A stretch of 64,000 nucleotides of DNA from a virus (taxonomy: Duplodnaviria; Heunggongvirae; Uroviricota; Caudoviricetes): the IMG/VR virus record IMGVR_UViG_3300028591_000140; one strand, written 5' to 3'. This document shows positions 1-62,980 of the stretch, in pieces; within the stretch, counting starts at the first letter, position 1; each line of letters opens with the position of its first letter. The notes beneath the pieces were generated by a model. That model was given only the letters and a program-made list of their open reading frames with translations, was not told the DNA's origin and ran no database searches. The position numbers were made by a program, and so were the translations under genes.

Positions 1-8
1 ATGCGTGA

Positions 9-41
9 GGGGGGTGTATTTTTGACACCCCTCCCCCATGT
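9..41. repeat. Perfect palindrome GAGGGGGGTGT-ATTTTTG-ACACCCCTCCCC (11-bp GC-rich stem, 7-nt loop)
   Basis: Read directly from sequence; no U-run follows on either strand, so it is not a classic terminator. Confidence 0.5.
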
Positions 42-483
42 CTTCATAGCCTCAAATGGGCTATCCATTTCTGATATTTTAGTGAAAAGCGACGGAATTA
101 AGCATGAAATCAACATAAAATGAATGATTATTGTCATAAAACAGTCCATTTCAATAGTAGTATACCCAACTATAGGTATTCATCATGCTTTAAGCTTTTC
201 TAAATCAAGCAGGCTTCTTAACTTTCTTATAGTTTCCTGTAAGATTGAACTTAAGAATTTCGTCAATTGCTTGATTGACTGCAAAGTTTTGGTCGCTTGG
301 AGACAGATCCGAAGAGTCCTTGGCAATTCTGGCAAGGTAACCACAAGTGTGATAGCCATGCTGTTCATCAAAGGCAAACCAATCATCGAATTGCGTAAAA
401 GGATCATAAGGATTGTCAGTAGTTGTGAGTGCATAAATTTCGTCCATAAAGGTTCCCTCATTCATGTGAAGTCAATCCGATGG

Positions 484-1087
484 CTCAAATATCTTATACT
501 TGTCCATGAACATAGCTTCATAAGGTGTATAGAAGGGAACAGATACTTGAAAAGCTGCTTAAAGAGGGTGGGGTATGGTATTTGATTAAGCCTCATGGGG
601 ATGGCTGAGCTGACGGGACCAAGAACGTCTTATCGGTAGAGCAAGACAAGAAGTGCTTGAAAACCTAGACAAGTCAGGCAAATACTTGTCCATTCTCAAA
701 GTTGAGCGCTCCATATGTCATATAGGGGATGGTATGGGTATGCTCTCTAAATATCTTATAGATACATACTTTGTTCACTCAGCAGTAAAGGGGCCACAAA
801 AGTAGCCAAAGAGGCAGGGTCTAAATATCTTATGTCCCACCGGAGTAACTTGACAGAATCCAGGCAATGAATCTATGTCAGAGAGGCATCACACGTATTT
901 GGAGGACCAGAACTCTGTAGTTACTCGAGGAGTGAGGCTCTCTAAAAAGCCTTCCAAATATCTTATTCCCTTCGAGCCTATATAGAGTCTCTATAAGCTT
1001 CTCTCAGGAAGCCTTTATACAGAGGCTCAGAGGCCGATTGATAATCCCTATTGATAAGTGCCTCAGGAAGAACACTAAATATCTTAT
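484..1087. repeat. Non-coding array of 5 direct repeats with core CTNAATATCTTAT (484-498, 745-760, 821-833, 955-967, 1075-1087); candidate iterons or protein-binding sites
   Basis: Repeated 13-mer at 75-130 bp spacing in a region without credible ORFs. Weaker copies of AATATCTT occur inside the adjacent 901-aa gene (about 1678, 1817, 2436, 3060). Confidence 0.6.
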
Positions 1088-1093
1088 TGATGT

Positions 1094-3799
1094 TTAGTCG
1101 TTGATCTCACGATTCAGAGTTGAAACGGACACGCCAAGAGTGTCAGCCACTTCCGCATAGGTATAGCCTTTGCTAAGAAGAGTCTTTGCTCTTGCGACAG
1201 AAGCAGCACTCAGTGTTTTACTTGCACGAGGAGTTGCTCTTGCCTTCAAATCGTCGATATTTGTGAATCGGAGAATATCCATCAGCATATTGTCGCTGAT
1301 AGCACCAGCTTGAATGGCTGTCCATTCACGATCGCTAATTGATATTGCGATGTTATCCGGATTGTTCGGATTTCTGCTTCTGGTGCCAACAGCTTGACGG
1401 GCTCTGGCAATTTCCTGAGAGCGAATCTTTTTCTTATCGTCTTTATCGAGATTCGGGTTTGCATTGATACGAGCCGAACTCTTAACGCTCGCAATCAATT
1501 GAGCCTGACGCTCAAGAGGCGAATTTTTCTTTGCAATATTCAGTTTAGCAAGCAAAGACGCTCTTTCATTTGCATAAGCTTCTTTGGCAGAAGCATTCTG
1601 CTGAAGACGGCCAGTTCGGATCTGTTCCTTTCTGGCAGCATTACCAAGCGCCTTAAGCTTGTTGGCGTGTTCAGCGTAAATATCTTCTATGATGGTACCG
1701 GAAGAAAGATCATAAGCATTACCGCCGCGATTAAATGTTTCGGTCATCTTATCGCTCTTGATGGTCTTAGGCTCGTAGCTTCCATCTTTCTTCTTTGACA
1801 TCTTGCCAGTATTCCTAAATATCTTTTGGCCAGACAGGTAAAGCTGTTGCTCTTCCGGAGTCATTTTACTTAAGCTCCGAACTTCAGTTCTGTCAGGGAC
1901 ATACTCAGGAGACTTGGCTCTGGATATCAAGGTAGAAGCACCGCCATTGGCTTTGCCCTGATACTTTTTATTCAGCTCTTTGATGCCGTTATCCTTTTCG
2001 GATGCTCTCCAGTCAAGATTGTGCTTTTCAGCATCAATCACGACCATGGAGTGTTTAACGGCACGAGCAATTTCTTGCTCAGTAGCATTTCGAATCGTCA
2101 TATCGGTAATCAGATTCGAAACCTTCCCCATTTGCATCTGCTTATGGAATCCAGTCTCAGGACCGGTTTTCGGCATACCTTCATAAGCAGAATATCTTGT
2201 CTTGGGATCGAAGCCTTCCAGATCCTCGAGATATTTGGCAGTACGGATCTTGACACCCTTTGTCGGAATGACAGTTACCGTATCGCCATCAAAGTCTGCG
2301 CCGGAAAGCTGAGCGGCAACATGTGAATTGATGCCGACCGCGGTTTTGGCATTACCGAGAAGTCTTCGGCCTTCCTCATTATTGTTATTTACACGCAAAC
2401 GAGGCATCTCGAAAGGACCGGCGTGAGGATATCTTATTAGAACAACCTCTTCGCCATTTTCATAGTTCGGAGCATAGATCTCCGTGTCCTTAAGAGAACC
2501 GATCGGAAGAATGACGTGTGCAGCCTGACGAGGAAGAGCCGCAGCTTTCAGATGAATAGCGGCAGAATCGCAATCATCAGCAAAAGACTCAAGAAGCTTG
2601 CGCTTAATCGTCGGGTTTGTGAGAGCACAGATTTCATCGAATTCCTGTTTCTTCTCTTTGTAGGTAATATCAAGTTGCTTTTTGGCAAGCTGAGGCGGCT
2701 GCTTGGATAGAAACTGAGAGGCCAGATTCTTAGACCATTTCTGCCAGTCCTCATCCTCATTGACAATGTTGAGAGCTCCGCGCTGATCCTTAATAGATGC
2801 GCCGAAGGGATTCTCAGGATCATCCTTCATCTTCTTCAGAACATCCATCTTCGGAGTGCCTCTTGGTTTGTTGGTATTAAATATAATGTCAACCCCATCC
2901 GGCATCTCTTTCGGATCGCCATACATTGCCATGCCTTTTAGGTAGTGGGTTCCATCGACAGCGATACGAACTTGAGCATATCGACTTGCACCAATGTTCA
3001 GATCGGAAACTCCTTCACGAATCTCAATGACGCCGTCTTTGTCAATGCCACCATCTTCAGAATATCTTATTTTGACACGGTCAGAATCAATACTCTGAGG
3101 GGTTTGCATCTTCTTGACATAGTCACCATAGTCCTCAAACTTAACACCTTCGGGAGAAGAAATCTGATCACGATTCTTATAAACTTCTTCGTAAGGAACA
3201 TCGCCCTTTGTCAGAACGACAACATTGGTTTTCTGAGTCGGATCAGATGCTTGAGGGACTGAGATTCGATGGTACTTGTAGCCTTCCTGTTTCAGAAGCT
3301 CGGTAGCTGCTTTAAGCTGTTCTTTGCTCACATTGAGCTGAATGTTAACGCCTTCGCCAACATCCAAATATTTTCTCTTTTCAACCTGCTCTTTCAGCTC
3401 ATCAGCCAGAATCGTTGCACGATCCCGACGGACTTGAAACTCAGGCTTGAGATAGTTTCGAACAGTCGATTCAGGAATGCCAAGCTCTTTGGAGATAGCT
3501 GTTTTTGAATTACCGGCATCATAAAGAGTCTGCACACGACGGATCATATCCTTCTTCTGTTCATTAACAGCAAGAGTGTGCATAGCTCGATATTGACCGG
3601 TGCTCATCTTGAAAGCCTCAGCAATCTGTTTGTCAGTAAGACCTTGTTTCTTCAGATCATTAGCTCTCGAAAGAAAGTTTCGGTTTCTCTGAGGATTCTT
3701 ACCTGAACCCCATGGGTATCTGCCGGAATGGCGAGGAGTGCCATAATGCGAAGCATCTCTGTCAGAGTCCGGAAAATATCCAGAGTAACTCTTTTCCAT
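1094..3799 (-). CDS. 901-aa protein with beta-prime-like DPBB catalytic signature (RYPHAGP ... GADFDGDTVTV, compare NADFDGD of RNAP beta-prime). Candidate YonO-like or crAss-gp66-like single-subunit non-canonical RNA polymerase. Several HTH-like segments. N-terminus carries the shared HYG..GRYPWGSG motif
   Basis: SD AAGGAGCG 7 nt upstream of ATG. Motif spacing (R-x-P-x-x-H, about 32 aa, ADFDGD) mirrors bacterial and archaeal beta-prime. A TOPRIM (FDGD) primase is the less likely alternative. Confidence 0.45.
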   Translation of the reverse strand: MEKSYSGYFPDSDRDASHYGTPRHSGRYPWGSGKNPQRNRNFLSRANDLKKQGLTDKQIAEAFKMSTGQYRAMHTLAVNEQKKDMIRRVQTLYDAGNSKTAISKELGIPESTVRNYLKPEFQVRRDRATILADELKEQVEKRKYLDVGEGVNIQLNVSKEQLKAATELLKQEGYKYHRISVPQASDPTQKTNVVVLTKGDVPYEEVYKNRDQISSPEGVKFEDYGDYVKKMQTPQSIDSDRVKIRYSEDGGIDKDGVIEIREGVSDLNIGASRYAQVRIAVDGTHYLKGMAMYGDPKEMPDGVDIIFNTNKPRGTPKMDVLKKMKDDPENPFGASIKDQRGALNIVNEDEDWQKWSKNLASQFLSKQPPQLAKKQLDITYKEKKQEFDEICALTNPTIKRKLLESFADDCDSAAIHLKAAALPRQAAHVILPIGSLKDTEIYAPNYENGEEVVLIRYPHAGPFEMPRLRVNNNNEEGRRLLGNAKTAVGINSHVAAQLSGADFDGDTVTVIPTKGVKIRTAKYLEDLEGFDPKTRYSAYEGMPKTGPETGFHKQMQMGKVSNLITDMTIRNATEQEIARAVKHSMVVIDAEKHNLDWRASEKDNGIKELNKKYQGKANGGASTLISRAKSPEYVPDRTEVRSLSKMTPEEQQLYLSGQKIFRNTGKMSKKKDGSYEPKTIKSDKMTETFNRGGNAYDLSSGTIIEDIYAEHANKLKALGNAARKEQIRTGRLQQNASAKEAYANERASLLAKLNIAKKNSPLERQAQLIASVKSSARINANPNLDKDDKKKIRSQEIARARQAVGTRSRNPNNPDNIAISISDREWTAIQAGAISDNMLMDILRFTNIDDLKARATPRASKTLSAASVARAKTLLSKGYTYAEVADTLGVSVSTLNREIND

Positions 3800-3802
3800 A
3801 AT

Positions 3803-4360
3803 TTACGCTCCTTCATCCTGAACCTGAGACAGCCGCTTATCAAAGAAGATGATCTTCTCCATGATTGCCAGAATATCCACTGGGTCCGGATTAAACACAT
3901 TGACTTCGTCTGATTGGTAAATTCTCAACTCAATATCAATCTTGTTGGGATCGACACCATACTCCAGACAAAAGAGTGCAGCGTAGATCATTAACTGCTC
4001 CATATGAGCAGGCATGGCACCAGTTTTCAAATCGTGAATTCTCAGAATGTCGTTTCGAAAGCAAATAGCATCTGCTGTGCCAAAACAATTTTCTGAATAA
4101 TATAAAGGCTGTTCTGGTGTCATTTGAAAACCTATTGCATCGTTTACATACATGTTCAAGGTTTTCTTGGATTTCGGAAGCTTGATACCAAGCTCAATAG
4201 CTCGACGAGCGAAATCATGCAGCTCAGTTCCTCGTTGAGTTGCCAATGCATTACGAAATGCGGATATCAATTTCTCTTCATCATAGTTGAGCCAGTGATA
4301 CTTGGAAGCGCTTAGAAAAGCATGTCTTCCTTCAAGATTTGAATGCCGATTGAAGATCAT
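3803..4360 (-). CDS. PD-(D/E)xK nuclease (RecB/Cas4/YqaJ-like exonuclease)
   Basis: Motifs GTADAICF ... IHDLKTG ... QLMIYA match the D / ExK / Y pattern of RecB-family nucleases. Confidence 0.55.
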   Translation of the reverse strand: MIFNRHSNLEGRHAFLSASKYHWLNYDEEKLISAFRNALATQRGTELHDFARRAIELGIKLPKSKKTLNMYVNDAIGFQMTPEQPLYYSENCFGTADAICFRNDILRIHDLKTGAMPAHMEQLMIYAALFCLEYGVDPNKIDIELRIYQSDEVNVFNPDPVDILAIMEKIIFFDKRLSQVQDEGA

Positions 4361-4631
4361 TTAATACCTCCGCTCTGTTTTCGGGGTAAATAAAACGAGC
4401 AAAGGACATTTTGTCTCCTTGCTCGATGTAGTGATCCTGATTCGGTTGATGCTTTTCATGGGCTGATTTCTTGCATTCAAGTAATGCCCAATGTTTTCCA
4501 TAAAGGACTGTAAGGTCAGGAATTCCCTGAATGTAATTCGGATCATTCTTAAAAACCATACAACCTGGAAAGCGTGCCTTAATCTCCTTAATCAGTTCAC
4601 TTTGAAACCGGTTTTCTTTCAAATTTGCCAC
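4332..4631 (-). CDS. VRR-NUC domain nuclease
   Basis: GIPDLTVLYGKHWALLECK fits the VRR-NUC PD-(D/E)xK core; about 100 aa is typical for phage VRR-NUC proteins. Confidence 0.55.
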   Translation of the reverse strand: MANLKENRFQSELIKEIKARFPGCMVFKNDPNYIQGIPDLTVLYGKHWALLECKKSAHEKHQPNQDHYIEQGDKMSFARFIYPENRAEVLNDLQSAFKS

Positions 4632-4696
4632 ACTCCTAAAAGGTCAAGGAAATGCGATATCTCCTCTATTATAAGGAATGTATTTCTTGCGAATTT

Positions 4697-5941
4697 CTAC
4701 TTCGAAAGAAAACGACTCTCATTGAAGTTTTTCTTTTGCTGAAGTGCTCTTGCGATGGCTAAATCCAAGGGACAACTTGATTTCAGTCGGTAATAATATA
4801 AATCCGTAAATGGAGTGTTCATTCGATCTATGCGACCGGCAGATTGAACCATGACTTTGTAGGAGTAATTGAGAGAATAGAAAATAATTGTGTCAGTCTC
4901 GATACAGTTCCAACCTTCAGCACCCGCAAAGTATTGAACAAGGTATACCCATTTGTCAGCAATGGGAATTGGCTCGTGCTTTTGACCATTCCACTCCGCA
5001 ACTTTAACATCATCACCATAAGGAAGACTGCGGAGAATATCCAGCTCGTAGTTGTAGTTATAGAAGATGATTGTTTTTGGATGAGTCTTTCTTAACTCAA
5101 GAATGGCATCTCCACGACTCGGGTCAGAGTTGATCGCCTTCCTGGCCACATAGCACAACTCAACCGCATTAGCTATTGGAATATCTTGATAGATGTCCCA
5201 CCTGGTTGCCATGATCCGTTTATAGAGCTCTCGATCATACTTGACAGATACCGTTTCATGATGAGCTGTTGTTGGCCGTGTGTAATCCATGTTTACAAGA
5301 ATCTTCTCACGAAGTCGCCAAAGTCGCCCTTGTTCCAAATATCTATCTACTTGAGGAAACTTGGCGAAACGCTTATACACTACATGCTGTCGGATGAAAT
5401 CGGTCTTGTTTCGATAGAAACCATTTGCCACAAAGACCGGCATGTAGTCCATCCAAGTGTCACCTGGAGTAGCACTCAACAATATCCAGTGATTTGCCGC
5501 TGAAATCTTCCAAAAGGATTTTGTCCATTCACCGGTTCCTACAACTCGCTGTTCGTCAAATATAAAGAACGCATTCTGAACAGTTACATACTTTTTGATG
5601 TTATTCCATGAATCGACATGGACCTCCATAAGACCATGGTAGATCGAATCCTCATCACCAGATATCAAGAACGGAATCAATTCTTTTTCCCATTCTTTTG
5701 TATCCCGTTTCCGAGCGGTTGTGATGATGTACAGGCTTTTAGGATGAGCCATTGGTACATAGTCATCATCAAAACCATGAAGAGTCCCATCCAGCATTCC
5801 GTCGCATTCTTTGCAAAAATAATAGGCAATTGCGGTTCTGGACTTTCCAGAGCCAACCTTGCCACAAAGGATTGAGCCGTTTCTCAATCTCTCAATTGCA
5901 TCCCATTGGTAGTCATAGAGTGCGACCAATCTATTTTCCAC
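4697..5941 (-). CDS. Superfamily-2 DNA helicase (DEAD/DExH-like)
   Basis: Walker A GKVGSGKS, motif II FDEQ, motif III LLSATPGDTW, helicase-C-like C-terminus. Confidence 0.6.
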   Translation of the reverse strand: MENRLVALYDYQWDAIERLRNGSILCGKVGSGKSRTAIAYYFCKECDGMLDGTLHGFDDDYVPMAHPKSLYIITTARKRDTKEWEKELIPFLISGDEDSIYHGLMEVHVDSWNNIKKYVTVQNAFFIFDEQRVVGTGEWTKSFWKISAANHWILLSATPGDTWMDYMPVFVANGFYRNKTDFIRQHVVYKRFAKFPQVDRYLEQGRLWRLREKILVNMDYTRPTTAHHETVSVKYDRELYKRIMATRWDIYQDIPIANAVELCYVARKAINSDPSRGDAILELRKTHPKTIIFYNYNYELDILRSLPYGDDVKVAEWNGQKHEPIPIADKWVYLVQYFAGAEGWNCIETDTIIFYSLNYSYKVMVQSAGRIDRMNTPFTDLYYYRLKSSCPLDLAIARALQQKKNFNESRFLSK

Positions 5942-6001
5942 CTCCGCAAAATATCAAAAAAGGAGCCACCCTTATAAAAGAGCAGCTCCTTGTCAGTCAT
6001 A

Positions 6002-6490
6002 TCAGAACGGGAGATCCTCACCGATATCTTCCTCATCGAGATTCCGATACTTCTTCTCGAACTCATTCTCAGCGATGGTGACATACATGTTCTTGACATA
6101 TGCCTTCACACCACTCTTGCCATTGACCTCCCAAACATAGGGACGGACGATGACATCTACGTTTTCGATCTCGGCATAATCCAGAACTGAAATGGTATCC
6201 TCAGTCAGTTCGGTCTTCTTGCCTCCGGTAATCAGCCAAATCTTCGGCGGGAAGTTGTCAAAGGCAACGGCAACCTGAAGGTATGCCTGTGGAACATCAT
6301 CAGGATCACGCGGAGAGAGATACTTAATGTTCCAGCCAATATCTTTCAGGTCCTCGGCAACATCATTGTCAAGAACCAGGCAGAAGTTTCTCTTTCCCTT
6401 TGCATTGAACTTGCTCTCCTTGCCAGCAAAATTGCGGAAGATGATTCTCGCATTCTCCACCGAAATATTAGGAATTCTCTGATTAGCCAT
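6002..6490 (-). CDS. Probable single-stranded DNA-binding protein (phage SSB-like)
   Basis: Acidic C-terminal tail ending EEDIGEDLPF, like the SSB DDDIPF tip; sits between the helicase and the polymerase. Confidence 0.45.
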   Translation of the reverse strand: MANQRIPNISVENARIIFRNFAGKESKFNAKGKRNFCLVLDNDVAEDLKDIGWNIKYLSPRDPDDVPQAYLQVAVAFDNFPPKIWLITGGKKTELTEDTISVLDYAEIENVDVIVRPYVWEVNGKSGVKAYVKNMYVTIAENEFEKKYRNLDEEDIGEDLPF

Positions 6491-6526
6491 TTGTATAGAC
6501 TCCTTTCAAAATATAAATGACAACAA

Positions 6527-9500
6527 TTAAGAGGCGAAAGCCTCAAAGTCTCCATAAGCGGAGATTGAAGTAATCGCCTCATCGACCATGGCCGCATAGT
6601 ATCTGCGGTCAATATCTTTTTCTTTACCGAGAGTTCGAACAATCTCGGCTTCCAGCCAACGATAGCCTTTGGTTCCCGTAGCGGCTGCATACTTTCCGTT
6701 CTTCTCTCTCAGAAGAACACCGCCGCCACAGTCAGGCATGACAGGACAAAAAGACCCAGCCTTACCTACGAAGTGATAGTCATGACCCTTAGCAATCTCC
6801 TCATCCAAGCGCCAATGCTCACGGACCAAATCATTTGAACGTTGAATGGTCTCAATATCAATGCCAGTTTCATCGACATCTCGAGATCCAATGACCTTTA
6901 AGTTCTGTTGCCAGTTCTTACCCCAAATATCCATAAGCTCCCGCTCAACTTTGACCAACTGTTTCTCAAAACCGCTTACATCGGGCAGACTTTCATTCAT
7001 GTCCAAATATAAAGCAGAGGTTACAGTCTTGGTTTCGCACATGTCTCTGAACTTAATCGGAGACTGGCTAAACAGAGTCTTGAATACATACGGAACCTGA
7101 AACTGAGTGCCAGTTGCAGTCCACGGGGTCATGATCTTCTCGCCGGTCGAAAGCTCAAACTCATGAGGACCGTCATTGTACTTAGCAATATATACAGCAT
7201 CGTTCACAAGGCACATCTTCTCATAGGTTGCCTCATGCTCAAAAGTATAGCCATACTCCTTGCCATACTTCATAACGAAGTCAATAATTTCCGGAGTAGC
7301 ATCCGGAATCTTTATGGAGTCCGTCTTAATATGAGCAACAGTATAGCCAAGTTCCTGAACCTTATGCTTCAGATTAATCATAAATAGAGCGCCACGCTTG
7401 GCAACAATGTTGTCTACATTACGTGGATCCCTAAAGGGATTCTCAAAGTTAGCCGAAGTCAACCCGTAGACGCTGTTAATGGCTATCTTAAGAGCATAGG
7501 ACAAAGCTTTCGCCTGTTCGTTACTGGTCAGGTATTTGGCAAGCTTTCCATTGAACATTTTGCCTGCGGCCTCGAAATCTTTATGCTTAATATAAATTCG
7601 CGCCTGCTTGATGTCGCTGAAATTCTGAGTGTAAGGCCCAAACAGATTCAGGCATTCAATGCTTGTCGGGTGCATAGATGCAATATCCAGCAAAGCAACA
7701 TTGGAGTAGATGCCAGGCTCTGAATAGACATAACCACCTTCACCGGTTTCTTCGCCCCAGTACGTACTCTTACCATTCTCAAACTTATACCCGGGAAACA
7801 TTTCCGACAGATCAGTATAGTTAAACTGAGACTGAGGCTTCTTCTCAGAACCGAATATAATTCTGGTTGTGTGCATGTTAGTTGTGGCATTCACATTCAA
7901 ACCAGAAATGTCTGCCAGAATCTCTCTTGCTATAAAGTCTGCCTGACGGGCATTGAAAACTGCTTCACATGCGATTACATCGTTATCACAGTATTCGGCA
8001 ACCTTCTCCCAGAGTTCTTCCGGAACAGGCTGATCCCAAGGAAGGCCAAGCTCCTGATGGTGAATATCAAGCTCGATCTCCCATTTCTTCAGGCTCTGTT
8101 TCTTTGCACAGAAGTCATAAACATCCGTATATGAAACGTCATAAGCTTCTCCAAACAAGGCATTTGGACTGCCATTAACAATCCTTTGAGAAAGTTCATA
8201 GATCTGCTCGACAGAATATCCAATCATTCTGGCATACAGAATGTGGTTATCGTATCTCCGGCAGTTAAACCCGACCAGTTTAAGACGAAGAAGATTCTCA
8301 ATCTCATTCGGACTGGGATTGATCATACGAACTACCGGATTTCCTTCTCCAGCTTTCTTCCAGTTAACCAGAAGCAGATTTGGGAAAACTTCAACGTCGA
8401 AGAATATAATGACATCGTCATCCGGCTCCATAGATTCGGAAGGATCCTCGGACTTAAACTGCATCTCATTCACCATCTTGATGCAGTCGGTAGCATGATG
8501 AGAGCTCTTAGCCGCGAATGTCAAAATATAAGGACGAAGATCCGTCACATCATAGTGCATTCCGCTTTCATAAGCATCATTCAGAATCTTTAAAATAAAT
8601 TGACAGCTTGTGACAGTAGCATGCGGAGCATACTCTTTCGCCAAGCTGCGCTTTATAATTGTTCTGATTGCTTTTTCATTCTTGATAGAGTCAAAGTTAA
8701 CCATCTTTGTCTCCACCTTAAACGGAAGACCCGACGATATCGTGCCAATCGGGTTTGACGTGCACTGGGTGAGCTTTCTTCGCAGCGAGCTTTTTCCAGT
8801 GAACACCTTCACCTCGATCCCGTCTTCGTAAATCCGGCTTAATCTGTCCGGGTCTCCTCCCGTATAAATATAATGCAGATGAATCCCTTGACCGGACTTG
8901 CTCAGTTCGGCATAAGTCGGTGGCCAATGAGATGCTGCCTCGATATTCTTTTCTAATGACTTTTCACCGCTTTCATCTTTTAGATCGAAGTCAATTACAA
9001 TGTGGTTCTCAGGCACTCGGACATAATGGAGCTTACTTGTGTCAAGCTTTCCAAGTACAGTCTTAACCTCATCCCACTTTTTCCAAGGCCCCTCGGTGTC
9101 CTCTCGAGCATATTGAGCTGGTGCATCCGCCATCTGAATATCAAACACCGATTTCTGGTCTGCAAAGTGAAGCCAATTTCCATCTTCAGCCACAGATTCA
9201 GAGGAAGCTTCATCGGAGGATCCATCTCCATCAGTTCCGGAAATATCATGCTTCTCTTCCTCCATTCCAAACTTGCTTAGTTTTAAGCCTTGGTAATAAT
9301 TCCAGACTTGGTTTCCAGCACTGTCTCTTGTCCGCTCATGGAATTCGTGAAAATAGTTTCTCAGCTCAGTCTTAAATAACCTCTTGCTATATGGATATGG
9401 AACTTTTGCCTCATCGCAAAACTCTTTGTATTTAGACCAAGCTTGCTGAAGAGTGACGCCCTCTCTAAACTCCACAAAATTCTCTTCCATGAAATTATAG

Positions 9501-10549: not shown

Positions 10550-10731
10550 ACATAGTTACCTCCTTTCTGGGCTTTTATGACTTTACGCCTTTTTCGCCCA
10601 ATATTCGCCTTTGTGATGTTGTGATAAAAATTTTTCTATATTTATATATAAAAAATTAATTTTCTATATTAAGTAAAAAAAAACTATCACAAACATCACA
10701 AACCCAAAATTTCGACATTTTTTCTCTCAAA

Positions 10732-11277
10732 TTATTCACACCGATTTTTCATGTAAAAATTGAGCTGATACCACAATTCGACCCGTCTCAGATCGCCTCG
10801 AAATCCTCGAATCACGAACGGTCCTCCTTGTCCATCAGCCTTGTATTTTCGATCGAGAAATCGTCTCACAACGTACTCAAAATCGTCCTCATCAAAGCAC
10901 CAATCATCGAGTCCATCCAAGCCCAAATTCTCGATCATTTCCCAAAACCAAACGCCGGTTCGGTCCCCTTCATCCGGGTCATACATGATCTCATTTTCAC
11001 AATCTTGAGCCAGCGCAACGAGCACTTCAAGCACCGAACAAGGCCCCGTTTTTTCGCATTCAAATCCGGTTTCCTGCTCAAATATCCATCTCAAATGCTC
11101 GCCGTCTCCAGCCCGATTTCCATCATTTTTGACCAGCCAATAGAAGTCTTCCGAATATAATCCAAGCAATAATTTCTGATACATGTCACGCTGTTCAGCA
11201 TCAGGAATTGCGATTTCAGACAGCCAATTGAGGTAATTTCCGCCATTTTTACCCCAAATTCGCCTATTTTTAGCCAA
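10732..11277 (-). CDS. Hypothetical protein (acidic, 181 aa)
   Basis: Long ORF packed tightly among minus-strand genes. Confidence 0.55.
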   Translation of the reverse strand: MAKNRRIWGKNGGNYLNWLSEIAIPDAEQRDMYQKLLLGLYSEDFYWLVKNDGNRAGDGEHLRWIFEQETGFECEKTGPCSVLEVLVALAQDCENEIMYDPDEGDRTGVWFWEMIENLGLDGLDDWCFDEDDFEYVVRRFLDRKYKADGQGGPFVIRGFRGDLRRVELWYQLNFYMKNRCE

Positions 11278-11279
11278 TT

Positions 11280-12041
11280 TTACTCATTTTCAGGGGAAAT
11301 ACTTGCGAAATCACGATACTGCCGAATTACCTCATAGTCGGTACTCTGCTGCTCATTTCGCACATAAACCACGTCCGGTTCATACTCCCCAATCCTTCCC
11401 AAAGCATCATGGCCGACGGTCGTGGCAATGTTCGTAATGATCTCATCTTCCTCCGAACAAAGCACTCCATCATCATACAGATATAGCGTGACCTTCTCAA
11501 AATACGGCTGCTCATTCACGAATTTTTCGGCTGCCGTAGACAGCTCATCCGTCTCCAAAACATAGGGTCCGGGAGCGTCCTCAGCAGGTGTTGTATCTAC
11601 AATTTCGAGGTCTTCTCCCTCGTCAATTCCGTTGTGAATATCCACAGCTTTGGGCGGTTTTGAGAACAGATTATACTCGGTTTTATGGGTATCTACATAC
11701 CCATTTTCTTCCATTTTTCGCCGGTAACTTTCGATATCCGCAGCCTTCCTCCGAGCGTTTTCTTCGGCTAATTTTTTCGCTTTTTCGGGGTCATTTTCCG
11801 AATTTTCTGTGATACTTTTTGTGATAGTTTTGCTTTTTTTGCCCTCAAAACTATCACAATTTCTATCACATTTTGGAAAAACTATCACATTTTTCTTCTC
11901 AGAATAGGCTTTTTTGACCTCCGCGACCTCTTCATCGAGGCGTTTTTGGTACTTTTTCTCCATCACGACCCACATTCCGAGGGCTCCACCGACCACACCG
12001 CCGATGAAATATAACAATTTTCCGTTCATTTTTCTCTCCAA
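11280..12041 (-). CDS. Hypothetical membrane-anchored coiled-coil protein
   Basis: N-terminal TM segment LLYFIGGVVGGALGMWVVM followed by charged coiled-coil. Part of the ACTATCACA repeat array lies inside the ORF. Confidence 0.5.
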   Translation of the reverse strand: MERKMNGKLLYFIGGVVGGALGMWVVMEKKYQKRLDEEVAEVKKAYSEKKNVIVFPKCDRNCDSFEGKKSKTITKSITENSENDPEKAKKLAEENARRKAADIESYRRKMEENGYVDTHKTEYNLFSKPPKAVDIHNGIDEGEDLEIVDTTPAEDAPGPYVLETDELSTAAEKFVNEQPYFEKVTLYLYDDGVLCSEEDEIITNIATTVGHDALGRIGEYEPDVVYVRNEQQSTDYEVIRQYRDFASISPENE

Positions 12042-12426
12042 TCCAAATCTCTTGCAATAATTTTTGCCGTCATCACGCTTCCAACGCTCCGATTCATGTG
12101 CTCACGAATATAAATCAGCACTTTTTGCTCGTCGATCATCTCATTTTTCGTGTTTTTGGCGACAAAATTCAGCAAATCTAATGCATTAATCATGGTTTTC
12201 TCCTTGTGATACTTTTTATTTTTCAAAACTATCACAAAAACTATCACAAAATTTTGTCTATTTGAGCCTCTCAGAGCCCATTTAATAGACGAAAATATCA
12301 CATTTTATCTCATTTTAGGTATTTCCACTCGTCGAAACGGAAGCTTTCTGTGCGTTCAAACGGGATAAATCGCTCAAAACTATCACAAAATTCCTCCGAA
12401 TCGACGCTAAAATATCCATTTTTCCT

Positions 12427-14982: not shown

Positions 14983-15249
14983 TCAATCCCCACCCAATTT
15001 CCACCATGTAACAAATTCCTTAGCACATCCATTGCAAATATCAAAGGGGCTGTGAAAAGACTGAGAGCTGTAATCGCCAATTGCCAAAGTAGAAAGCGGT
15101 CTTCCATCAAATGCAATTCGTTCGCTATTATTTGGTTCATACAACTTCCCGCAGCGATCACACTTGTAGGCTTTACTCATTTTCGGTTCCTTTCTTGAAT
15201 ATCCTTCTGTATTCCCACTTGTCATCATCGACATAATCGCCAAATCCAT
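14983..15249 (-). CDS. Small zinc-ribbon protein
   Basis: CDRCG ... CNGC cysteine pairs. Confidence 0.4.
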   Translation of the reverse strand: MDLAIMSMMTSGNTEGYSRKEPKMSKAYKCDRCGKLYEPNNSERIAFDGRPLSTLAIGDYSSQSFHSPFDICNGCAKEFVTWWKLGGD

Positions 15250-16639
15250 AGTGGTCTGCGATCTGACCGGACTTGGCGTTCTCTTTCAGATTGTTCCACT
15301 GAAGTTCATTGAATCTGGAATTCTCAGGACTGTTGAACCAGTCAAGCGCCTTCTGAATATTGCGAGAAGTTGCACCAGTCCCTCTATATTTAGGATCAGT
15401 GGCAAGAGCAATGTCGGCTCGTCCATCACCAATATCCCAAATCTCGAGCATAGAGATTGGAATATCGCCGTCATACTCCAGGAAAGTCTTGGCTATATTG
15501 GAGGCTCGATCGGTTCTCGTCTCATCCGGAATCCACTTATCATCGCCAGAAGAAACTCCAAGTTCTTTCTGTTCAATTTCAGAGAGCGTACTTACAATTC
15601 TATTAACGTCATCAATATTTTTAAGTTCACGAACAACTCTTCGTCTATAGTATTCCCGCTCTTTACCTTTATCGGTTCTGGTCCCATCTTCATTTTGAAA
15701 CCTTCTAACGCCCCATTTCTGTCCTTTAATCCCATGGTGTTCGAGATGGTCATCCTTATTGGAAATATAATTCTTAAATCGATTCTCATTCCCAATGTTC
15801 ATCTCATCCAGATCAACGCCATACTCCTTAGCACGTTCCAGAATAGCCTCGGCCAATTCTTTTTCATACTTTGGATCAATATAATTGAAGAAGCGAATTG
15901 CGGATCTTACATGATCAGCATCAGGCATGGGGTATTTCTTGATCTCCGGGACGCCAAACTTCTTGGGATTGTCTTCCTCCATGCCTTCATCACTGTGTCC
16001 AATCTCCTCAGGCACATGCTGAATCTCCGTGGCAATCTCTTTTACACCATCAGGGGGCAGTGGGTCACGATCGTTGGGCTGGGGCTTGTCCTTCTCAGTC
16101 ACCAGAATTTTCTTCATCTCTTCGAGGATCTTCTCGACAGCCTTCCGGGTCTTCTTATGGAGCTGAATATAATCCTTATGCTCATCCCACCACTTGAAGA
16201 TCTCAGTCAGATCGCCTTTGCGCCAGCTAAAAGACCACCAGTCGCAGATCATTTCGAAAATATAAGCAAGGGGCATTTCGATGCATCTGCTCGGTTCGCC
16301 CTTATTGTCCGTGCTCATAACCCAATACTGCCAATGGTGTGGGTTACGATGCATGTGCATGAGAAAAGCCCGATGGAAATTATCAACCACCTCAGATGAA
16401 CGATTGTCCTTGCGAAGATAGAAATAATCATCATAGAAGTAGTATTCGTCCGGCTCAATTTTGGAACGGTCATGCTCAGCGACAAGTTTCTCAACATCAA
16501 AAATATCAAACTCATCAGCCTTATAGTTGGCCTTGATCCAATCCATCAGTCGAGGCATCAGATTGGTCTTCATCCACTGCCAACCCTTCTGAACAGCACC
16601 TACATGCTCATTCAGGTATTCATCGTATTCAATACTCAT
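15173..16639 (-). CDS. 488-aa protein carrying the shared HHGIKGQKWGVRRFQNEDG motif internally (about aa 305), flanked by unrelated domains
   Basis: Motif identical in core to those in 56658..57218, 57446..58798, 60260..60799 and 60882..61493. Confidence 0.55.
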   Translation of the reverse strand: MSIEYDEYLNEHVGAVQKGWQWMKTNLMPRLMDWIKANYKADEFDIFDVEKLVAEHDRSKIEPDEYYFYDDYFYLRKDNRSSEVVDNFHRAFLMHMHRNPHHWQYWVMSTDNKGEPSRCIEMPLAYIFEMICDWWSFSWRKGDLTEIFKWWDEHKDYIQLHKKTRKAVEKILEEMKKILVTEKDKPQPNDRDPLPPDGVKEIATEIQHVPEEIGHSDEGMEEDNPKKFGVPEIKKYPMPDADHVRSAIRFFNYIDPKYEKELAEAILERAKEYGVDLDEMNIGNENRFKNYISNKDDHLEHHGIKGQKWGVRRFQNEDGTRTDKGKEREYYRRRVVRELKNIDDVNRIVSTLSEIEQKELGVSSGDDKWIPDETRTDRASNIAKTFLEYDGDIPISMLEIWDIGDGRADIALATDPKYRGTGATSRNIQKALDWFNSPENSRFNELQWNNLKENAKSGQIADHYGFGDYVDDDKWEYRRIFKKGTENE

Positions 16640-17457: not shown

Positions 17458-17534
17458 TGGTCCAAGTGGCGAGACTCGAACTCACGGCCTCTTGATCCCA
17501 AATCAAGCGCTCTAACCAACTGAGCTACACCTGG
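17458..17534 (-). tRNA. tRNA-Pro (anticodon UGG), CCA encoded
   Basis: Hand-folded cloverleaf: acceptor CCAGGTG/CACTTGG with the C1:G72 pair typical of bacterial tRNA-Pro. D-arm GCTC-AGTTGGTTA-GAGC, anticodon arm CTTGA-TTTGGGA-TCAAG, T-arm GTGAG-TTCGAGT-CTCGC, discriminator A, CCA. Confidence 0.8.
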
Positions 17535-23096: not shown

Positions 23097-24530
23097 TTAC
23101 CAGGTGTACTCGCTGATCTTCTTCTCGAGAGATCCGACACCTTCCTCAGCCAGGAGGATGAAGTCGAAGACCTTCTCAGACCAGCCGGCGATGATATTAG
23201 TCTTTTTGCCGTAGAACTGCTGGGTGCCATAACCCTGAAGATCCACAGCGTGAACCCAAATATCATTTCCGGTCTCCCGACGATACCGATCAGCCAGAGA
23301 CTGAACAGGAGCTCTCCAACTGGAGTTGCACTCGTTGTCGGAAAGGATGATGATACGGTCAGCCTTGATCTTCTGCTGGGTCATGGCCATGAACGGAAGC
23401 TCCATATAGGTTCCTCCGCCGCATCTGCTGGACGATACTGCCTCCAGAATGCTGACTCGCTTCGGAACAGTGACGTTCTTGATCTGGTTATTGAACGTGT
23501 AGACGACAGCGTCCTCACAGATCCGATTAGCGATCAGACCGAGCATGAAGGAAATATCACAGCAGCGGACATCGGATTTGTCGCTGACAGGATCGCTCAT
23601 AGATCCGGAAATATCAATCGCAATGACCGTCTTTCCCGGAATCTTGGGCAGGTTGGAGATCGAAGCGTCCAGAGCATCCTCAAGCACATCATAGGTCTTG
23701 CTGGTGCCGAGGCCCTCATTCTTCAGAGTCCTGTATGCCGACAGGAATCGGAACGGGAGCTGCTTGGACTTCCTGACCGCCACAGGATCACGAAGTTTGG
23801 CGTAGACATCATCCAGGTTATACGGATCAGCCTTAATGATGTTGCGCAGGTTTCTCATCATAGCCATGTAACCGAGCTTCTTGCCTTCGATGAGATCCTC
23901 CCAAACCTCTTTCTTGTTTCCTCTGGCGCTGAGCTGAGTCTCCCAGGTTTCAGGGATCTCCATGGTTCCCTCAATGCAGCGCTTCCAGAGTGCAGCCTGC
24001 TCACCATTCATAGGCTTGGGACGGCAGAGACACAGGAGGTCACGCATCTTGACGGACTTGGAATCACCCTTATACTTGGCGAGGCTGTACTCATCCAGGG
24101 TCTTGAGGACATCGCCGATTCCCTTCTTCAGAGAGTTGGGGATGGGCTTGCCGAAGGTTGCGAGGTAGTAAGACATGATCTCAGTGATGTCGTCTGCTCT
24201 CACGGCAACACCTTTGACTGTCTGGCGCACGAAAGGTTTACCCTCAGGTGCATGGGCGAGATGGGCCGTCAGGACATGAGAAATGGACCTCATGTTAAAC
24301 TCCCGTCTGGCAAAGACAGCGAGATTGCTGACAAACTCGGGATCAGCCTTGATGACTCGATCCAGAGTCTCCAGAATATCATCGCTGTTGTCCCCATAAA
24401 ACTTCTTCTCGTTGAAGAAGCTGGTGAGGACCTGAGTGACGAGCTTGGATTTGTCGGCCATAGAGTATGCGACATGTCCTTCGTGGTTGGTCGTGCGAAT
24501 GGTGGGTCTCGGGGAATTGAACTTAGCCAT
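23097..24530 (-). CDS. rsr: Ro60/Rsr-like protein: TROVE domain plus C-terminal vWA domain with MIDAS motif
   Basis: vWA MIDAS DISGSM (VIAIDISGSMSD). Size about 477 aa from ATG at 24530 with SD GGAGGTG. Long helical TROVE-like N-terminal region. Sits immediately upstream of the Y-RNA-like array. Confidence 0.6.
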   Translation of the reverse strand: MAKFNSPRPTIRTTNHEGHVAYSMADKSKLVTQVLTSFFNEKKFYGDNSDDILETLDRVIKADPEFVSNLAVFARREFNMRSISHVLTAHLAHAPEGKPFVRQTVKGVAVRADDITEIMSYYLATFGKPIPNSLKKGIGDVLKTLDEYSLAKYKGDSKSVKMRDLLCLCRPKPMNGEQAALWKRCIEGTMEIPETWETQLSARGNKKEVWEDLIEGKKLGYMAMMRNLRNIIKADPYNLDDVYAKLRDPVAVRKSKQLPFRFLSAYRTLKNEGLGTSKTYDVLEDALDASISNLPKIPGKTVIAIDISGSMSDPVSDKSDVRCCDISFMLGLIANRICEDAVVYTFNNQIKNVTVPKRVSILEAVSSSRCGGGTYMELPFMAMTQQKIKADRIIILSDNECNSSWRAPVQSLADRYRRETGNDIWVHAVDLQGYGTQQFYGKKTNIIAGWSEKVFDFILLAEEGVGSLEKKISEYTW

Positions 24531-24689
24531 AGTTTGGCACCTCCGAAAAATTTTTATAGTAGGGAAAATATGATGGACCTCCCGTCTAAACAGAGAAAAG
24601 CAAAGTCGGATAAATGGTTTTTGGAAAAGTGGTGCAGACACTTTTAAAAATATGTTCATCTTGAAGTAACCGACTTTAACACTACTGTC

Positions 24690-25178: not shown

Positions 25179-25310
25179 TGGCGAGGATGACCGGAATCGA
25201 ACCAGTGTCGTCGGCAATTACAGTGCGAAGTAACCATTTCATACACTTCAAATATAATTGAGGAAAACTGAAAAGGTACATTACGCCGTTCTACCACTGA
25301 ACTACATCCT
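25179..25310 (-). tRNA. tRNA-like gene with about 58-nt internal insertion: perfect 7-bp acceptor GAGGAUG/CAUCCUC, D-arm, T-arm, encoded GCCA; anticodon-like loop CUGUAAU (GUA, Tyr-like)
   Basis: 5' half GAGGATG-TA-GTTC-AGTGGTA-GAAC-G at 25286-25310; 3' half ACTGG-TTCGATT-CCGGT-CATCCTC-G-CCA ending 25179. Between them lies GCGTAATGTACCTTTTCAG ... GAAGTGTATGAAATGGTTACTTC, the same helix element as in the Y-RNA-like modules. Insertion position (D-arm/anticodon-stem junction) is non-canonical. Confidence 0.5.
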
Positions 25311-25384
25311 CGAAATATAGGCCGAGCAATTCAAATTCGCTTTTAAATTCAATAAATTAGCATAATATATCATGCTTTGCGTAA

Positions 25385-62792: not shown

Positions 62793-62980
62793 TGTTCATT
62801 ATTCCTTTCTGTTTGTGATGCCGGCTCGAATATGGTTTATCACAACGAATGCAGAAAGGCAATAAGAAAAGTTACAGAATGGTTGCAGGGGCGCACGAAT
62901 GGTTTCATTTCCGCACGTATCTGTACCAAACTTTTCAAACGAAATTTGTTCAAGTGTTACAAAAATCGAGGAGGATAGCA

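What the first reader, a model, noticed from the sequence alone, without database searches (positions are those of the whole stretch)
1094..3799. 901-aa protein with a beta-prime-like NADFDGD catalytic loop: candidate non-canonical single-subunit RNA polymerase
The segment VVLIRYPHAGPFEMPRLRV ... (32 aa) ... VAAQLSGADFDGDTVTVIP reproduces the spacing and residues of the double-psi beta-barrel catalytic region of multisubunit RNAP beta-prime (R-x-P-x-L-H ... NADFDGD). The same signature defines YonO of the Bacillus SPbeta prophage and the crAss-like virion RNAP; 901 aa is close to YonO in size. The protein also carries several HTH-like segments and the shared N-terminal motif described above, hinting that it is virion-packaged.

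If this is correct, the phage would encode its own transcription machinery. The many conserved promoter-like motifs (next finding) are candidate targets.
Basis: partly seen in the sequence, partly recalled or inferred. Interest (0 to 1): 0.8.

Follow-up and report, generated by a model that had tools for sequence, protein, structure and literature searches.

The report
Phage single-chain two-barrel RNA polymerase
The 901-residue protein is very probably a phage-encoded single-chain RNA polymerase of the "two-barrel" kind (relatives: fungal QDE-1, Bacillus YonO), flanked by DNA-binding domains; its family is large, already predicted in the literature, and still untested biochemically.

Summary
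ORF 1094-3799 (- strand, 901 aa) carries R456-Y-P-H ... D502-F-D-G-D, the only D-x-D-G-D in the window.

- An AlphaFold model (pLDDT 77) matches QDE-1 best (Foldseek E 7e-8).
- The candidate catalytic residues are invariant in 12 homologues from Firmicutes and Actinobacteria phages.

It is not new as a kind. It matches PHROG 4291 ("RNA-dependent RNA polymerase") over its full length, 250 phage genomes encode homologues, and two papers (2010, 2021) predicted this family to be YonO/RdRP-like. It is not a YonO-family member by sequence.

Genome position suggests a YonO-like or lambda-Q-like role. The gene is the last one of the replication operon. It lies beside a 5-copy ATAAGATATTTRG array and a conserved ~80-aa partner gene at the genome end, upstream of the structural genes.

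Virion packaging is plausible. The phage 1706 homologue is deposited as "structural protein", and the N-terminal leader resembles DUF7211 leaders on five other window proteins.

No activity has been shown.

The parts
1094..3799 (-). Complete ORF, 901 aa: HTH-flanked single-chain two-barrel RNA polymerase homologue
3680..3799 (-). N-terminal leader, residues 1-40 (MEKSYSGYFPDSDRDASHYGTPRHSGRYPWGSGKNPQRNR). Predicted disordered. HYG..R.SGRYP.GSG is invariant in the family and resembles DUF7211 leaders.
   Evidence: pLDDT about 30 for residues 1-40. Invariant columns H18-G33. hhalign against DUF7211-type leaders: probability 85%, E 6e-6. Not detected by Pfam DUF7211.
3377..3682 (-). N-terminal helical DNA-binding module with paired/CENP-B/Sleeping-Beauty-like HTHs, residues about 40-141
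   Evidence: Pfam CENP-B_N, HTH_24, HTH_28 and Terminase_5 at residues 81-124. PDB sequence hits 2elh and 6urs. Helices 40-141 in the model.
2756..3082 (-). First (beta-like) double-psi beta-barrel, residues about 240-348. Invariant D255-G256, Y274-A-Q276-V-R278-I-A-V and H285-Y-x-K288-G289.
   Evidence: Beta-strands 242-347. Invariant columns. Motif match by eye to QDE-1 D709, Q736, R738, K743 and to YonO TDGCG / MVRLPWVKG.
2261..2530 (-). Second (beta-prime-like) double-psi beta-barrel, residues about 424-513
2423..2434 (-). R456-Y-P458-H459 motif (the R-x-P of two-barrel RNAPs, in YonO-type R-x-P-H form)
   Evidence: R456, P458 and H459 invariant.
2282..2296 (-). D502-F-D504-G-D506, the predicted Mg-binding catalytic loop
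   Evidence: SGADFDGD invariant in 12 divergent and 59 closer homologues. Only D.DGD in the window.
1100..1333 (-). C-terminal double HTH module, residues about 823-900; the last HTH is sigma-70 region-4-like
   Evidence: Pfam HTH_23 3e-13, HTH_7, HTH_38 and Sigma70_r4_2 2.6e-7. Sigma70_r4_2 hits all 12 family members tested.
485..1087 (-). Array of five ATAAGATATTTRG motifs in a non-coding stretch directly downstream of the RNAP stop codon. Candidate promoter(s) or binding sites for the enzyme's HTH modules; the rival reading is terminase/cos recognition sites.
   Evidence: 6 matches against 0.24 expected; 5 lie here and 1 (one mismatch) lies inside the gene. The same core AAGATATTT is repeated at the equivalent place in L001 (4 or more copies) and L006 (12 or more copies, 53-bp spacing).
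205..465 (-). Conserved ~80-aa partner gene, always just downstream of the RNAP gene (1706 gp76, ReqiPepy6 gp107, RosaAsantewaa gp55, Circum gp99). The real start may be the second ATG.
   Evidence: PHROG 4303, E 1e-35. Alignment with conserved L-T-T-x-D-N-P-[FY]-[DN]-P. Synteny.

Best explanation
The ORF encodes a single-polypeptide RNA polymerase of the two-barrel (double-psi beta-barrel) superfamily, in the QDE-1/YonO branch.

Two barrels, at residues about 240-348 and 424-513, form the active site.
- D502, D504 and D506 would hold the catalytic Mg.
- D255 would help hold the second metal.
- Q276, R278 and K288 would hold the RNA 3' end and the NTP.
- R456 and P458 complete the conserved set.

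Unlike YonO or QDE-1, the core is flanked by a paired-like HTH module at the N-terminus and a sigma-region-4-like double HTH at the C-terminus. I infer that these give the enzyme its own DNA-site recognition.

Inferred role: it is the phage's own transcriptase on DNA. The gene is the last one of the rightward replication operon. Downstream of it lie a motif array, a conserved ~80-aa partner gene and the genome end. In circularly permuted relatives, the structural genes follow on the same strand. The most likely programme is therefore YonO-like or lambda-Q-like. The enzyme is made with or after the replication proteins. It starts at site(s) just downstream of its own gene and reads across the joined genome ends into the late operon.

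A fraction may also be packaged into virions through the conserved N-terminal leader.

Shown: the fold prediction, motif conservation, family membership and synteny. Inferred: activity, template, promoter and timing.
For: Fold:
- AlphaFold2 model with pLDDT 77.
- Foldseek top hits are QDE-1 (E 7e-8 to 1.5e-6, probability 1.00), then RDR2 (1.6e-4), then Rpb1/beta-prime chains.

Family:
- PHROG 4291 matches full length, E=0.
- Pfam RdRP gives weak hits in 6 of 12 members, centred on the catalytic loop.
- The core has 1269 50%-identity clusters at E<=1e-3.
- 250 phage genomes carry full-length homologues.

Conservation: D255-G256, YAQVRIAV, HY.KG, R.PH and SGADFDGD are invariant from Lactococcus to Streptomyces phages.

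Motif correspondence:
- QDE-1 D709, Q736, R738 and K743.
- YonO R-S-P-H...D-N-D-G-D with spacing 43, against 46 here.

Literature: the same family was predicted as YonO/RdRP-like.

Architecture:
- The RNAP start codon lies 4 nt after the exonuclease stop.
- The module VRR-NUC, exonuclease, RNAP, small ORF, genome end is conserved.
- Structural genes and TerL follow on the same strand in permuted contigs.
- SPbeta has the same layout: yonO, yonN, a 1.7-kb gap holding the YonO promoter, then the late operon.

Motif array: it sits next to the gene, and its core is conserved in L001 and L006.
Against: - No enzymatic evidence exists for any member of this family in the papers I could search.
- The profile of close homologues shows no detectable sequence similarity to YonO or to any PDB sequence outside the HTH parts.
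- pTM is only 0.50, and the residue-level mapping of the first barrel was done by eye, not by superposition.
- The 13-bp motif is absent from the rest of the 64-kb window. In L006 it sits at a regular 53-bp spacing, which fits a protein-binding array (terminase/cos, origin) at least as well as tandem promoters.
- No comparable motif was found in L007 or L009.
- The phage 1706 homologue is labelled a virion structural protein. That points to an injected early enzyme rather than a late one.
- The first barrel has the Q-x-R form typical of RNAi RdRPs, so an RNA or single-stranded DNA template cannot be excluded.
Confidence: 0.6

Rival explanations
1. Virion-packaged, injected early RNA polymerase, like N4 vRNAP, crAss gp66 or P23-45 gp96. 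The conserved N-terminal leader would target the protein into the capsid or ejection path. The HTH modules would hold it on the motif array at the genome end that enters the cell first. There it would transcribe the first phage product(s) without host RNAP.
For: - GenBank EU081845 labels the phage 1706 homologue (36% identical over the full length, E 8e-170) 'structural protein'.
- The only other 1706 protein with this type of motif, orf7 (two copies), is also labelled structural.
- The leader is invariant and predicted disordered.
- The leader aligns to DUF7211 leaders on five other window proteins.
- The motif array and the small conserved ORF lie within 1.1 kb of the apparent physical end.
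Against: - In the window the gene is coupled to the exonuclease and replication genes, not to structural genes.
- The ReqiPepy6 'structural protein' notes are copied from 1706 and are not independent data.
- I could not read the 1706 paper to check the basis of the label.
- The motif is not found in front of other window genes, so an injected enzyme using it could express only one 86-aa ORF before the DNA end.
- The window's DUF7211 genes lie beside the integrase, not in a structural module.
Confidence: 0.3
2. Replication-associated RNA synthesis. The enzyme would act on single-stranded or recombination intermediates, as QDE-1 does with RPA and a helicase. It would prime DNA synthesis or make regulatory or double-stranded RNA, rather than transcribe genes. 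This includes the literal 'RNA-dependent RNA polymerase' of the RefSeq label.
For: - Synteny with the ssDNA-binding protein, SNF2 helicase, VRR-NUC and Cas4-like exonuclease is constant.
- The best structural match is QDE-1, which has both DdRP and RdRP activity.
- The first barrel has the Q-x-R signature described as specific to RNAi RdRPs.
Against: - The neighbouring 1340-aa protein already carries a primase domain fused to the DNA polymerase.
- The enzyme has two sequence-specific-looking HTH modules, including a sigma-4-like one. That suits promoter recognition on duplex DNA.
- YonO, with the same motif form, is a DNA-dependent RNAP for late genes.
Confidence: 0.07
3. Not a polymerase in function. 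It would be a large HTH DNA-binding or packaging-recognition protein, as SEA-PHAGES records annotate it, whose barrel core is structural. The HTH modules would bind the repeat array near cos, like a small terminase.
For: - Many depositors call it 'helix-turn-helix DNA-binding domain protein'.
- There are weak Pfam Terminase_5 and PHROG small-terminase hits on the HTH parts.
- A repeat array with helical-phase spacing lies next to the genome end.
- No small terminase is annotated in phage 1706.
Against: - Strict invariance of the whole catalytic residue set across about 36-50% identical proteins is not expected for a dead enzyme.
- The core, not the HTH parts, is the best-conserved region.
- TOPRIM reading: nothing named as a primase or topoisomerase is among the listed fold matches.
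Confidence: 0.03

Closest known systems
Lactococcus phage 1706 ORF75 and its homologues in Fremauxvirus/Nevevirus, Faecalibacterium phage FP_oengus, ReqiPepy6 gp106 and many Arthrobacter, Gordonia and Streptomyces phages (PHROG 4291)
   Same: Same family:
- 36-52% identity over the full length, with the same leader, N-terminal HTH, two barrels and C-terminal HTH architecture.
- Same position as the last large gene before the genome end, followed by the same ~80-aa gene.
- Predicted as YonO/RdRP-like by Ruprich-Robert & Thuriaux 2010 (PMC2919709) and Koert et al. 2021 (bioRxiv 10.1101/842583).
   Different: - At most about 51% identical to any deposited phage. Its close relatives (up to 97%) are only in metagenome assemblies.
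- It sits in a larger genome: the closest relative's contig is 97 kb, and the window holds an integrase.
- In the window the repeat array lies between the RNAP gene and the small ORF.
QDE-1 (Neurospora) and eukaryotic RDRs (Pfam RdRP PF05183)
   Same: - Single chain with the beta-like barrel before the beta-prime-like barrel.
- D-x-D-G-D loop, and Q-x-R plus K in the first barrel.
   Different: - The Pfam score is below the curated cut-off (16.4 against 23.8 bits).
- No sequence hit to the PDB chains.
- The phage protein has HTH modules and the leader. It acts in a DNA phage, not in RNA silencing.
YonO of Bacillus prophage SPbeta
   Same: - Single-chain phage RNAP of similar size (839 aa).
- R-x-P-H ... 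D-x-D-G-D with nearly the same spacing (43 against 46), and V-R...K-G and D-G motifs in the first barrel.
- The gene sits upstream of a small gene, a non-coding gap and the late operon.
   Different: - No detectable profile-to-sequence similarity.
- Only YonO has been shown to be a processive DdRP for late genes.
- Not tested here: whether YonO lacks a matching leader or HTH modules. YonO was not scanned against Pfam.
Phage single-chain two-barrel RNAPs with solved structures: P23-45 gp96 (tape-measure fused, virion), P23-45 gp64 / P74-26 gp62 (non-virion), crAss-like phi14:2 gp66 (virion)
   Same: - Phage-encoded enzymes that recognise short phage-specific promoter motifs.
- Possible virion delivery.
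   Different: - Different domain context: no tape-measure fusion and not a 2000-aa multidomain protein.
- HTH flanks are specific to this family.
- No activity or promoter is known here.

Membership tests
Two-barrel (DPBB) RNA polymerase superfamily | Two double-psi beta-barrel domains forming the catalytic core | tested here: met
   [not shown]
Two-barrel (DPBB) RNA polymerase superfamily | Metal-binding Asp triad D-x-D-x-D in the beta-prime-like barrel | tested here: met
   D502-F-D504-G-D506, invariant in 59 and in 12 homologues.
Two-barrel (DPBB) RNA polymerase superfamily | Invariant R-x-P upstream of the Asp triad (Rpb1 R446/P448) | tested here: met
   R456-Y-P458, invariant, 46 residues before D502. 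The list of invariant residues comes from PMC2919709.
Two-barrel (DPBB) RNA polymerase superfamily | Beta-like barrel residues: one acidic (Rpb2 D837 / QDE-1 D709) and two basic (Rpb2 K979, K987 / QDE-1 Q736+R738, K743) | tested here: inconclusive
   Invariant candidates exist: D255-G256, Q276-V-R278 and K288-G289. They were matched by eye to the QDE-1 and YonO motifs. R278-to-K288 is 10 residues, against 5 in QDE-1 and YonO. No residue-level superposition was possible.
Two-barrel (DPBB) RNA polymerase superfamily | Template-dependent RNA synthesis | not testable with these tools
   Needs biochemistry. No paper on this family's activity was found.
PHROG 4291 (phage 'RNA-dependent RNA polymerase') | Full-length match to the family profile | tested here: met
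   E=0, 1158 bits, residues 16-900 on profile positions 12-906 of 909.
Pfam RdRP PF05183 (eukaryotic RdRP / QDE-1) | Score at or above the curated gathering threshold | tested here: not met
   16.4 bits against a cut-off of 23.8, E 0.0038, residues 493-590 only. 6 of 12 family members give weak hits, best E 7e-5.
YonO family (SPbeta) | Detectable sequence homology to YonO | tested here: not met
   hhalign of the 59-sequence profile against YonO gives probability 0.2%. Only short motifs correspond.
YonO family (SPbeta) | Transcribes the phage late operon from a promoter downstream of its own gene | not testable with these tools
   The synteny is analogous, but there are no expression data.
Virion RNA polymerases (N4 vRNAP, crAss gp66, P23-45 gp96) | Protein present in the virion and delivered with the DNA | not testable with these tools
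   Indirect only: the 1706 orf75 label 'structural protein', and a leader similar to DUF7211 leaders.
   [not shown]
Pfam DUF7211 (N-terminal motif family) | Match to the 25-residue profile | tested here: not met
   No hit at E<=10 for residues 1-81. Related only at profile-profile level, probability 85%.

The most novel reading that the evidence does not exclude
The enzyme is a self-targeting transcriptase that needs no sigma factor. Its paired-like and sigma-4-like HTH modules would read the ATAAGATATTTRG sites next to its own gene. Its disordered N-terminal leader would be one version of a general signal that loads a set of proteins into the virion for delivery with the DNA. In this phage the other leader-bearing proteins include two acetyltransferase-domain proteins.
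Probability: 0.25. Interest if true: 0.75.

Novelty: new member of a known kind. Interest (0 to 1): 0.45.

Why it matters
Single-chain two-barrel RNA polymerases are rare as studied enzymes (QDE-1, YonO, crAss gp66, P23-45 gp96 and gp64). They bear on the origin of cellular RNA polymerases.

This family is far larger than any of those. It has at least 1269 clusters at 50% identity, and 250 sequenced phages of Actinobacteria and Firmicutes carry it. Yet most genome records label it only 'HTH DNA-binding protein', and nobody has assayed it.

If it is active, it would be a compact RNAP (about 100 kDa) with built-in DNA-recognition domains. A candidate cognate site lies next to the gene, which makes promoter recognition by a minimal two-barrel enzyme directly testable.

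The leader shared with DUF7211 proteins offers a second testable question: is it a virion-targeting signal?

Tried and rejected
- **TOPRIM/primase reading:** rejected by the fold searches.
- **PDB sequence searches:** the single sequence and the 59-sequence profile hit only HTH domains.
- **YonO profile comparison:** hhalign of the family profile against YonO found nothing. The profile is shallow (Neff 2.0), so this does not exclude distant homology.
- **Genome-wide promoter motif:** ATAAGATATTTRG is confined to 485-1087, plus one 1-mismatch match inside the RNAP gene. The frequent 'TGATATTTGAAAGGAG' strings are stop codon plus ribosome-binding site, not promoters.
- **Sigma-70 promoter and terminator scan of 1-7000:** no more sites than in shuffles.
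- **Rfam on the whole window:** nothing in the 1-1100 non-coding region.
- **Independent virion evidence from ReqiPepy6:** its 'structural protein' notes are copied from 1706.
- **Papers I could not get:** Summer et al. 2011 was not retrievable, and the Garneau et al. 2008 phage 1706 paper did not appear in the library search.
- **Literature searches for 'DUF7211' and for experimental work on this family:** nothing found.
- **afdb50 fold library:** unavailable. BFVD added only other 'RdRP'-labelled phage models.
Full report
**1. Observation**

The ORF runs from 3799 to 1094 on the - strand, starts with ATG and encodes 901 aa. It contains VVLIRYPHAGPFEMPRLRV (residues 452-470) and VAAQLSGADFDGDTVTVIP (residues 494-512). 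The key residues are R456, P458, H459 and D502/D504/D506.

D-x-D-G-D occurs only once in the 77,689 residues of all six-frame ORFs of the window. Residue shuffles give 0.01 DFDGD and 0.025 R.P-(30-50)-D.DGD per shuffle.

The distance from R to the first Asp is 46 residues. YonO has 43 (R492-S-P-H ... D535-N-D-G-D). E. coli beta-prime has about 35 (from my own knowledge). The R-x-P-H form also matches YonO rather than beta-prime's R-A-P-T-L-H. The signature is real, but it is the YonO/RdRP version, not a copy of beta-prime.

The HTH segments are real:
- HTH_23 (E 3e-13), HTH_7, HTH_38 and Sigma70_r4_2 at residues 862-900.
- CENP-B_N and HTH_24 at residues 81-124.

**2. What the protein is**

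*Family.* PHROG 4291, named "RNA-dependent RNA polymerase", matches residues 16-900 at E=0 and 1158 bits. Pfam RdRP (PF05183) matches only weakly around the catalytic loop: E 0.0038 and 16.4 bits, against a cut-off of 23.8. It also gives weak hits in 6 of 12 family members.

*Predicted fold.* An AlphaFold2 model built on 59 homologues has mean pLDDT 77 and pTM 0.50. It shows two beta-rich blocks, at residues 242-347 and 426-512.
- Foldseek against the PDB puts QDE-1 chains first (E 7e-8 to 1.5e-6, probability 1.00). RDR2 follows (1.6e-4), then many Rpb1 and beta-prime chains at weak E-values.
- Nothing named as a primase or topoisomerase appears in either list.

*Conservation.* I aligned 12 members: Lactococcus phages 1706 and P092, Rhodococcus ReqiPepy6, Streptomyces RosaAsantewaa, Arthrobacter Circum, Gordonia Conley and metagenomic relatives. 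Their alignment identity to the query is 41-75%. The following are invariant:
- D255-G256
- Y274-A-Q-V-R278-I-A-V
- H285-Y-x-K288-G289
- R456-x-P458-H459
- S-G-A-D502-F-D-G-D506

By eye these match the QDE-1 active-site residues D709, Q736, R738, K743 and D1007/1009/1011. They also match the YonO strings TDGCG, MVRLPWVKG, RSPH and DNDGD. The mapping of the first barrel is by motif only. R278-to-K288 is 10 residues, against 5 in QDE-1 and YonO.

**3. How common, and is it known**

tblastn finds full-length homologues in 250 phage records, at 39-51% identity. By organism name they are Arthrobacter (95), Gordonia (55), Streptomyces (54), Lactococcus (13), Faecalibacterium and others.

A full HMMER scan with the 410-residue core alone finds 1269 clusters at 50% identity with E<=1e-3. 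Nearly all of the 150 best hits listed are about 900-1000 aa, with the core at about 230-650.

Depositors call the protein "helix-turn-helix DNA-binding domain protein", "hypothetical protein" or, in RefSeq, "RNA-dependent RNA polymerase".

- Ruprich-Robert & Thuriaux 2010 placed the phage 1706 protein among five YonO-like families (PMC2919709).
- Koert et al. 2021 described exactly this HTH-flanked protein in the actinophage supercluster and in Lactococcus and Faecalibacterium phages. They reported an HHpred hit to PF05183 and the DxDGD loop, and suggested RNA polymerase activity (bioRxiv 10.1101/842583).

I found no biochemical study of the family.

By sequence it is not a YonO-family member: hhalign of the 59-sequence profile against YonO gives probability 0.2%.

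**4. Context**

*Gene neighbourhood.* Upstream on the same strand lie the following genes:
- a 1340-aa primase-DNA polymerase fusion;
- an ssDNA-binding or annealing protein;
- an SNF2-type helicase;
- a VRR-NUC endonuclease;
- a Cas4/RecB-like exonuclease, whose stop codon lies 4 nt before the RNAP start.

The order VRR-NUC, exonuclease, RNAP, ~80-aa gene, genome end is conserved in ReqiPepy6 and several actinophages; phage 1706 keeps the same order, with five extra genes (a 'structural protein' and an endolysin among them) between its exonuclease and its RNAP gene. ReqiPepy6 has an annotated 3' cos overhang at that end.

*Partner gene.* The small ORF at 205-465 is the orthologue of 1706 gp76 and ReqiPepy6 gp107. 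It carries a conserved L-T-T-x-D-N-P-[FY]-[DN]-P motif.

*Genome end.* Window position 1 coincides, to the base, with the end of an independent 97-kb ENA contig whose RNAP is 97% identical. The window therefore probably starts at a physical genome end.

*What follows in relatives.* In circularly permuted contigs of relatives, the RNAP gene and the small gene are followed on the same strand by small genes, a head-tail connector, DUF7211 proteins and TerL.

*Other window content.* The far end of the window holds an integrase on the opposite strand. This suggests a temperate phage whose right arm is this window.

**5. Candidate target sites**

Between the RNAP stop codon and the small ORF lies a 600-bp non-coding stretch. 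It holds five copies of ATAAGATATTTRG on the gene strand.
- The window has 6 matches against 0.24 expected. The sixth has one mismatch and lies inside the RNAP gene.
- The core AAGATATTT is repeated at the equivalent place in the 97%-identical relative (4 or more copies).
- It is also repeated in a relative whose RNAP is 68% identical, with 12 or more copies, several at a 53-bp spacing.
- Two other relatives show no such motif.

The array could be the enzyme's promoter(s) or binding sites for its HTH modules. The regular spacing and the position near the genome end fit terminase or cos recognition sites just as well.

It is not a genome-wide promoter. Other repeated strings in the window are either stop-codon-plus-RBS junctions or a separate TTTGTGATAGTTTT cluster at 10.7-12.4 kb.

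**6. N-terminal leader and virion question**

Residues 1-40 are predicted disordered (pLDDT about 30). Even so, they contain an invariant H-Y-G-x-x-R-x-S-G-R-Y-P-x-G-S-G.

Five other window ORFs carry the DUF7211-type motif (Y-G-Y-x-F ... H-H-G-I-K-G-M-K-W-G-V-R-R), four of them at the N-terminus. Two of the five have weak matches to acetyltransferase families (PHROG).

Pfam DUF7211 does not detect the RNAP leader. A profile-profile comparison aligns the first 21 columns with probability 85%, E 6e-6.

The depositors of phage 1706 labelled orf75, the RNAP homologue, "structural protein". It is 36% identical to the window protein over the full length. The only other 1706 protein with this kind of motif, orf7 (two copies), has the same label.

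I recall that those labels came from virion mass spectrometry (Garneau et al. 2008), but I could not read that paper. The ReqiPepy6 notes merely copy the 1706 labels. Virion packaging is therefore plausible but rests on one database label.

**7. Mechanism**

*Shown:*
- a predicted two-barrel fold;
- a complete and invariant candidate catalytic set;
- flanking HTH modules, the last one sigma-region-4-like in all 12 members tested;
- conserved synteny.

The gene position mirrors SPbeta. There, yonO is followed by a small gene, a 1.7-kb gap holding the YonO-dependent start site, and the late operon. It also mirrors lambda Q and pR' (from my own knowledge).

I therefore favour a late-gene transcriptase that reads across the joined genome ends into the structural genes (about 0.6, counting versions where some enzyme is also packaged).

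The main rival is an injected early enzyme (about 0.3). A replication-linked RNA synthase or literal RdRP (about 0.07) and a non-catalytic DNA-binding or packaging protein (about 0.03) are less likely.

**8. Verdict**

The thing is a new member of a known, previously predicted family that has never been characterised experimentally. Interest is moderate. A specialist would not be surprised that it exists. The size of the family, the built-in HTH modules, the adjacent candidate site array and the shared leader make several clean experiments possible.

Noticed in passing
window 56658-57218, 57446-58798, 60260-60799, 60882-61493 (all - strand, motif at the N-terminus) and 15173-16639 (- strand, motif near residue 305): Five ORFs share a DUF7211-type motif (YGY.F...D..HHGIKGMKWGVRRFQNEDG). 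Two of them (60882-61493 and 15173-16639) have weak matches to acetyltransferase families. No paper in the library mentions DUF7211. In phage 1706 the motif-bearing orf7 is labelled a structural protein.
   Followed up: partly
window 485-1087 (- strand): Five copies of ATAAGATATTTRG lie in a 600-bp non-coding stretch between the RNAP gene and the small terminal ORF. The core AAGATATTT is repeated at the same place in relatives L001 and L006 (12 or more copies in L006, at 53-bp spacing). It could be a promoter array, HTH binding sites or terminase/cos recognition sites.
   Followed up: partly
window 10688-12384 (- strand): Six or seven copies of TTTGTGATAGTTTT are clustered upstream of the primase-DNA polymerase gene. 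They partly overlap weak ORF calls (11280-12041, 12026-12301). They look like iterons or an operator array, possibly a replication origin.
   Followed up: no
window 1-45: The window starts at exactly the same base as the end of an independent 97-kb ENA contig of a related phage, which suggests a physical genome end. A G/C-rich inverted repeat (GGGGGAGGGGTGT ... ACACCCCCCTC on the - strand) lies at the very end.
   Followed up: partly
window 205-465 (- strand): An ~80-aa protein (PHROG 4303, unknown function) is conserved as the immediate downstream partner of the RNAP gene from Lactococcus to Streptomyces phages. It carries an invariant D-N-P motif near the N-terminus and could be a cofactor of the enzyme.
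   Followed up: partly
window 23097-24659 (- strand) and 25182-25311 (- strand): A 520-aa protein matches PHROG 850 'RNA-binding protein'. About 500 bp upstream Rfam finds a 130-nt tRNA-like element (43.8 bits) that ARAGORN does not call as a tRNA. From my own knowledge this pairing resembles a bacterial Ro (Rsr) protein with a tRNA-like YrlA RNA; I did not test this.
   Followed up: no
window 17458-17534 (- strand): tRNA-Pro (anticodon TGG) encoded among the phage genes.
   Followed up: no
window 62849-63991 (+ strand): A 380-aa integrase (PHROG 1, E 3e-47) on the strand opposite to nearly all other genes. This suggests a temperate phage, with the window as its right arm.
   Followed up: no
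window 47338-48369 (- strand): A 343-aa protein combines an N-terminal repressor-like HTH with a weak match to an RNA polymerase sigma factor family (PHROG 351, E 4e-9). It could be a further transcription factor of the phage.
   Followed up: no
representative protein P0256 (1809 aa): One relative carries the RNAP core at residues 1179-1595 of an 1809-aa protein, so it is fused to a large N-terminal extension.
   Followed up: no
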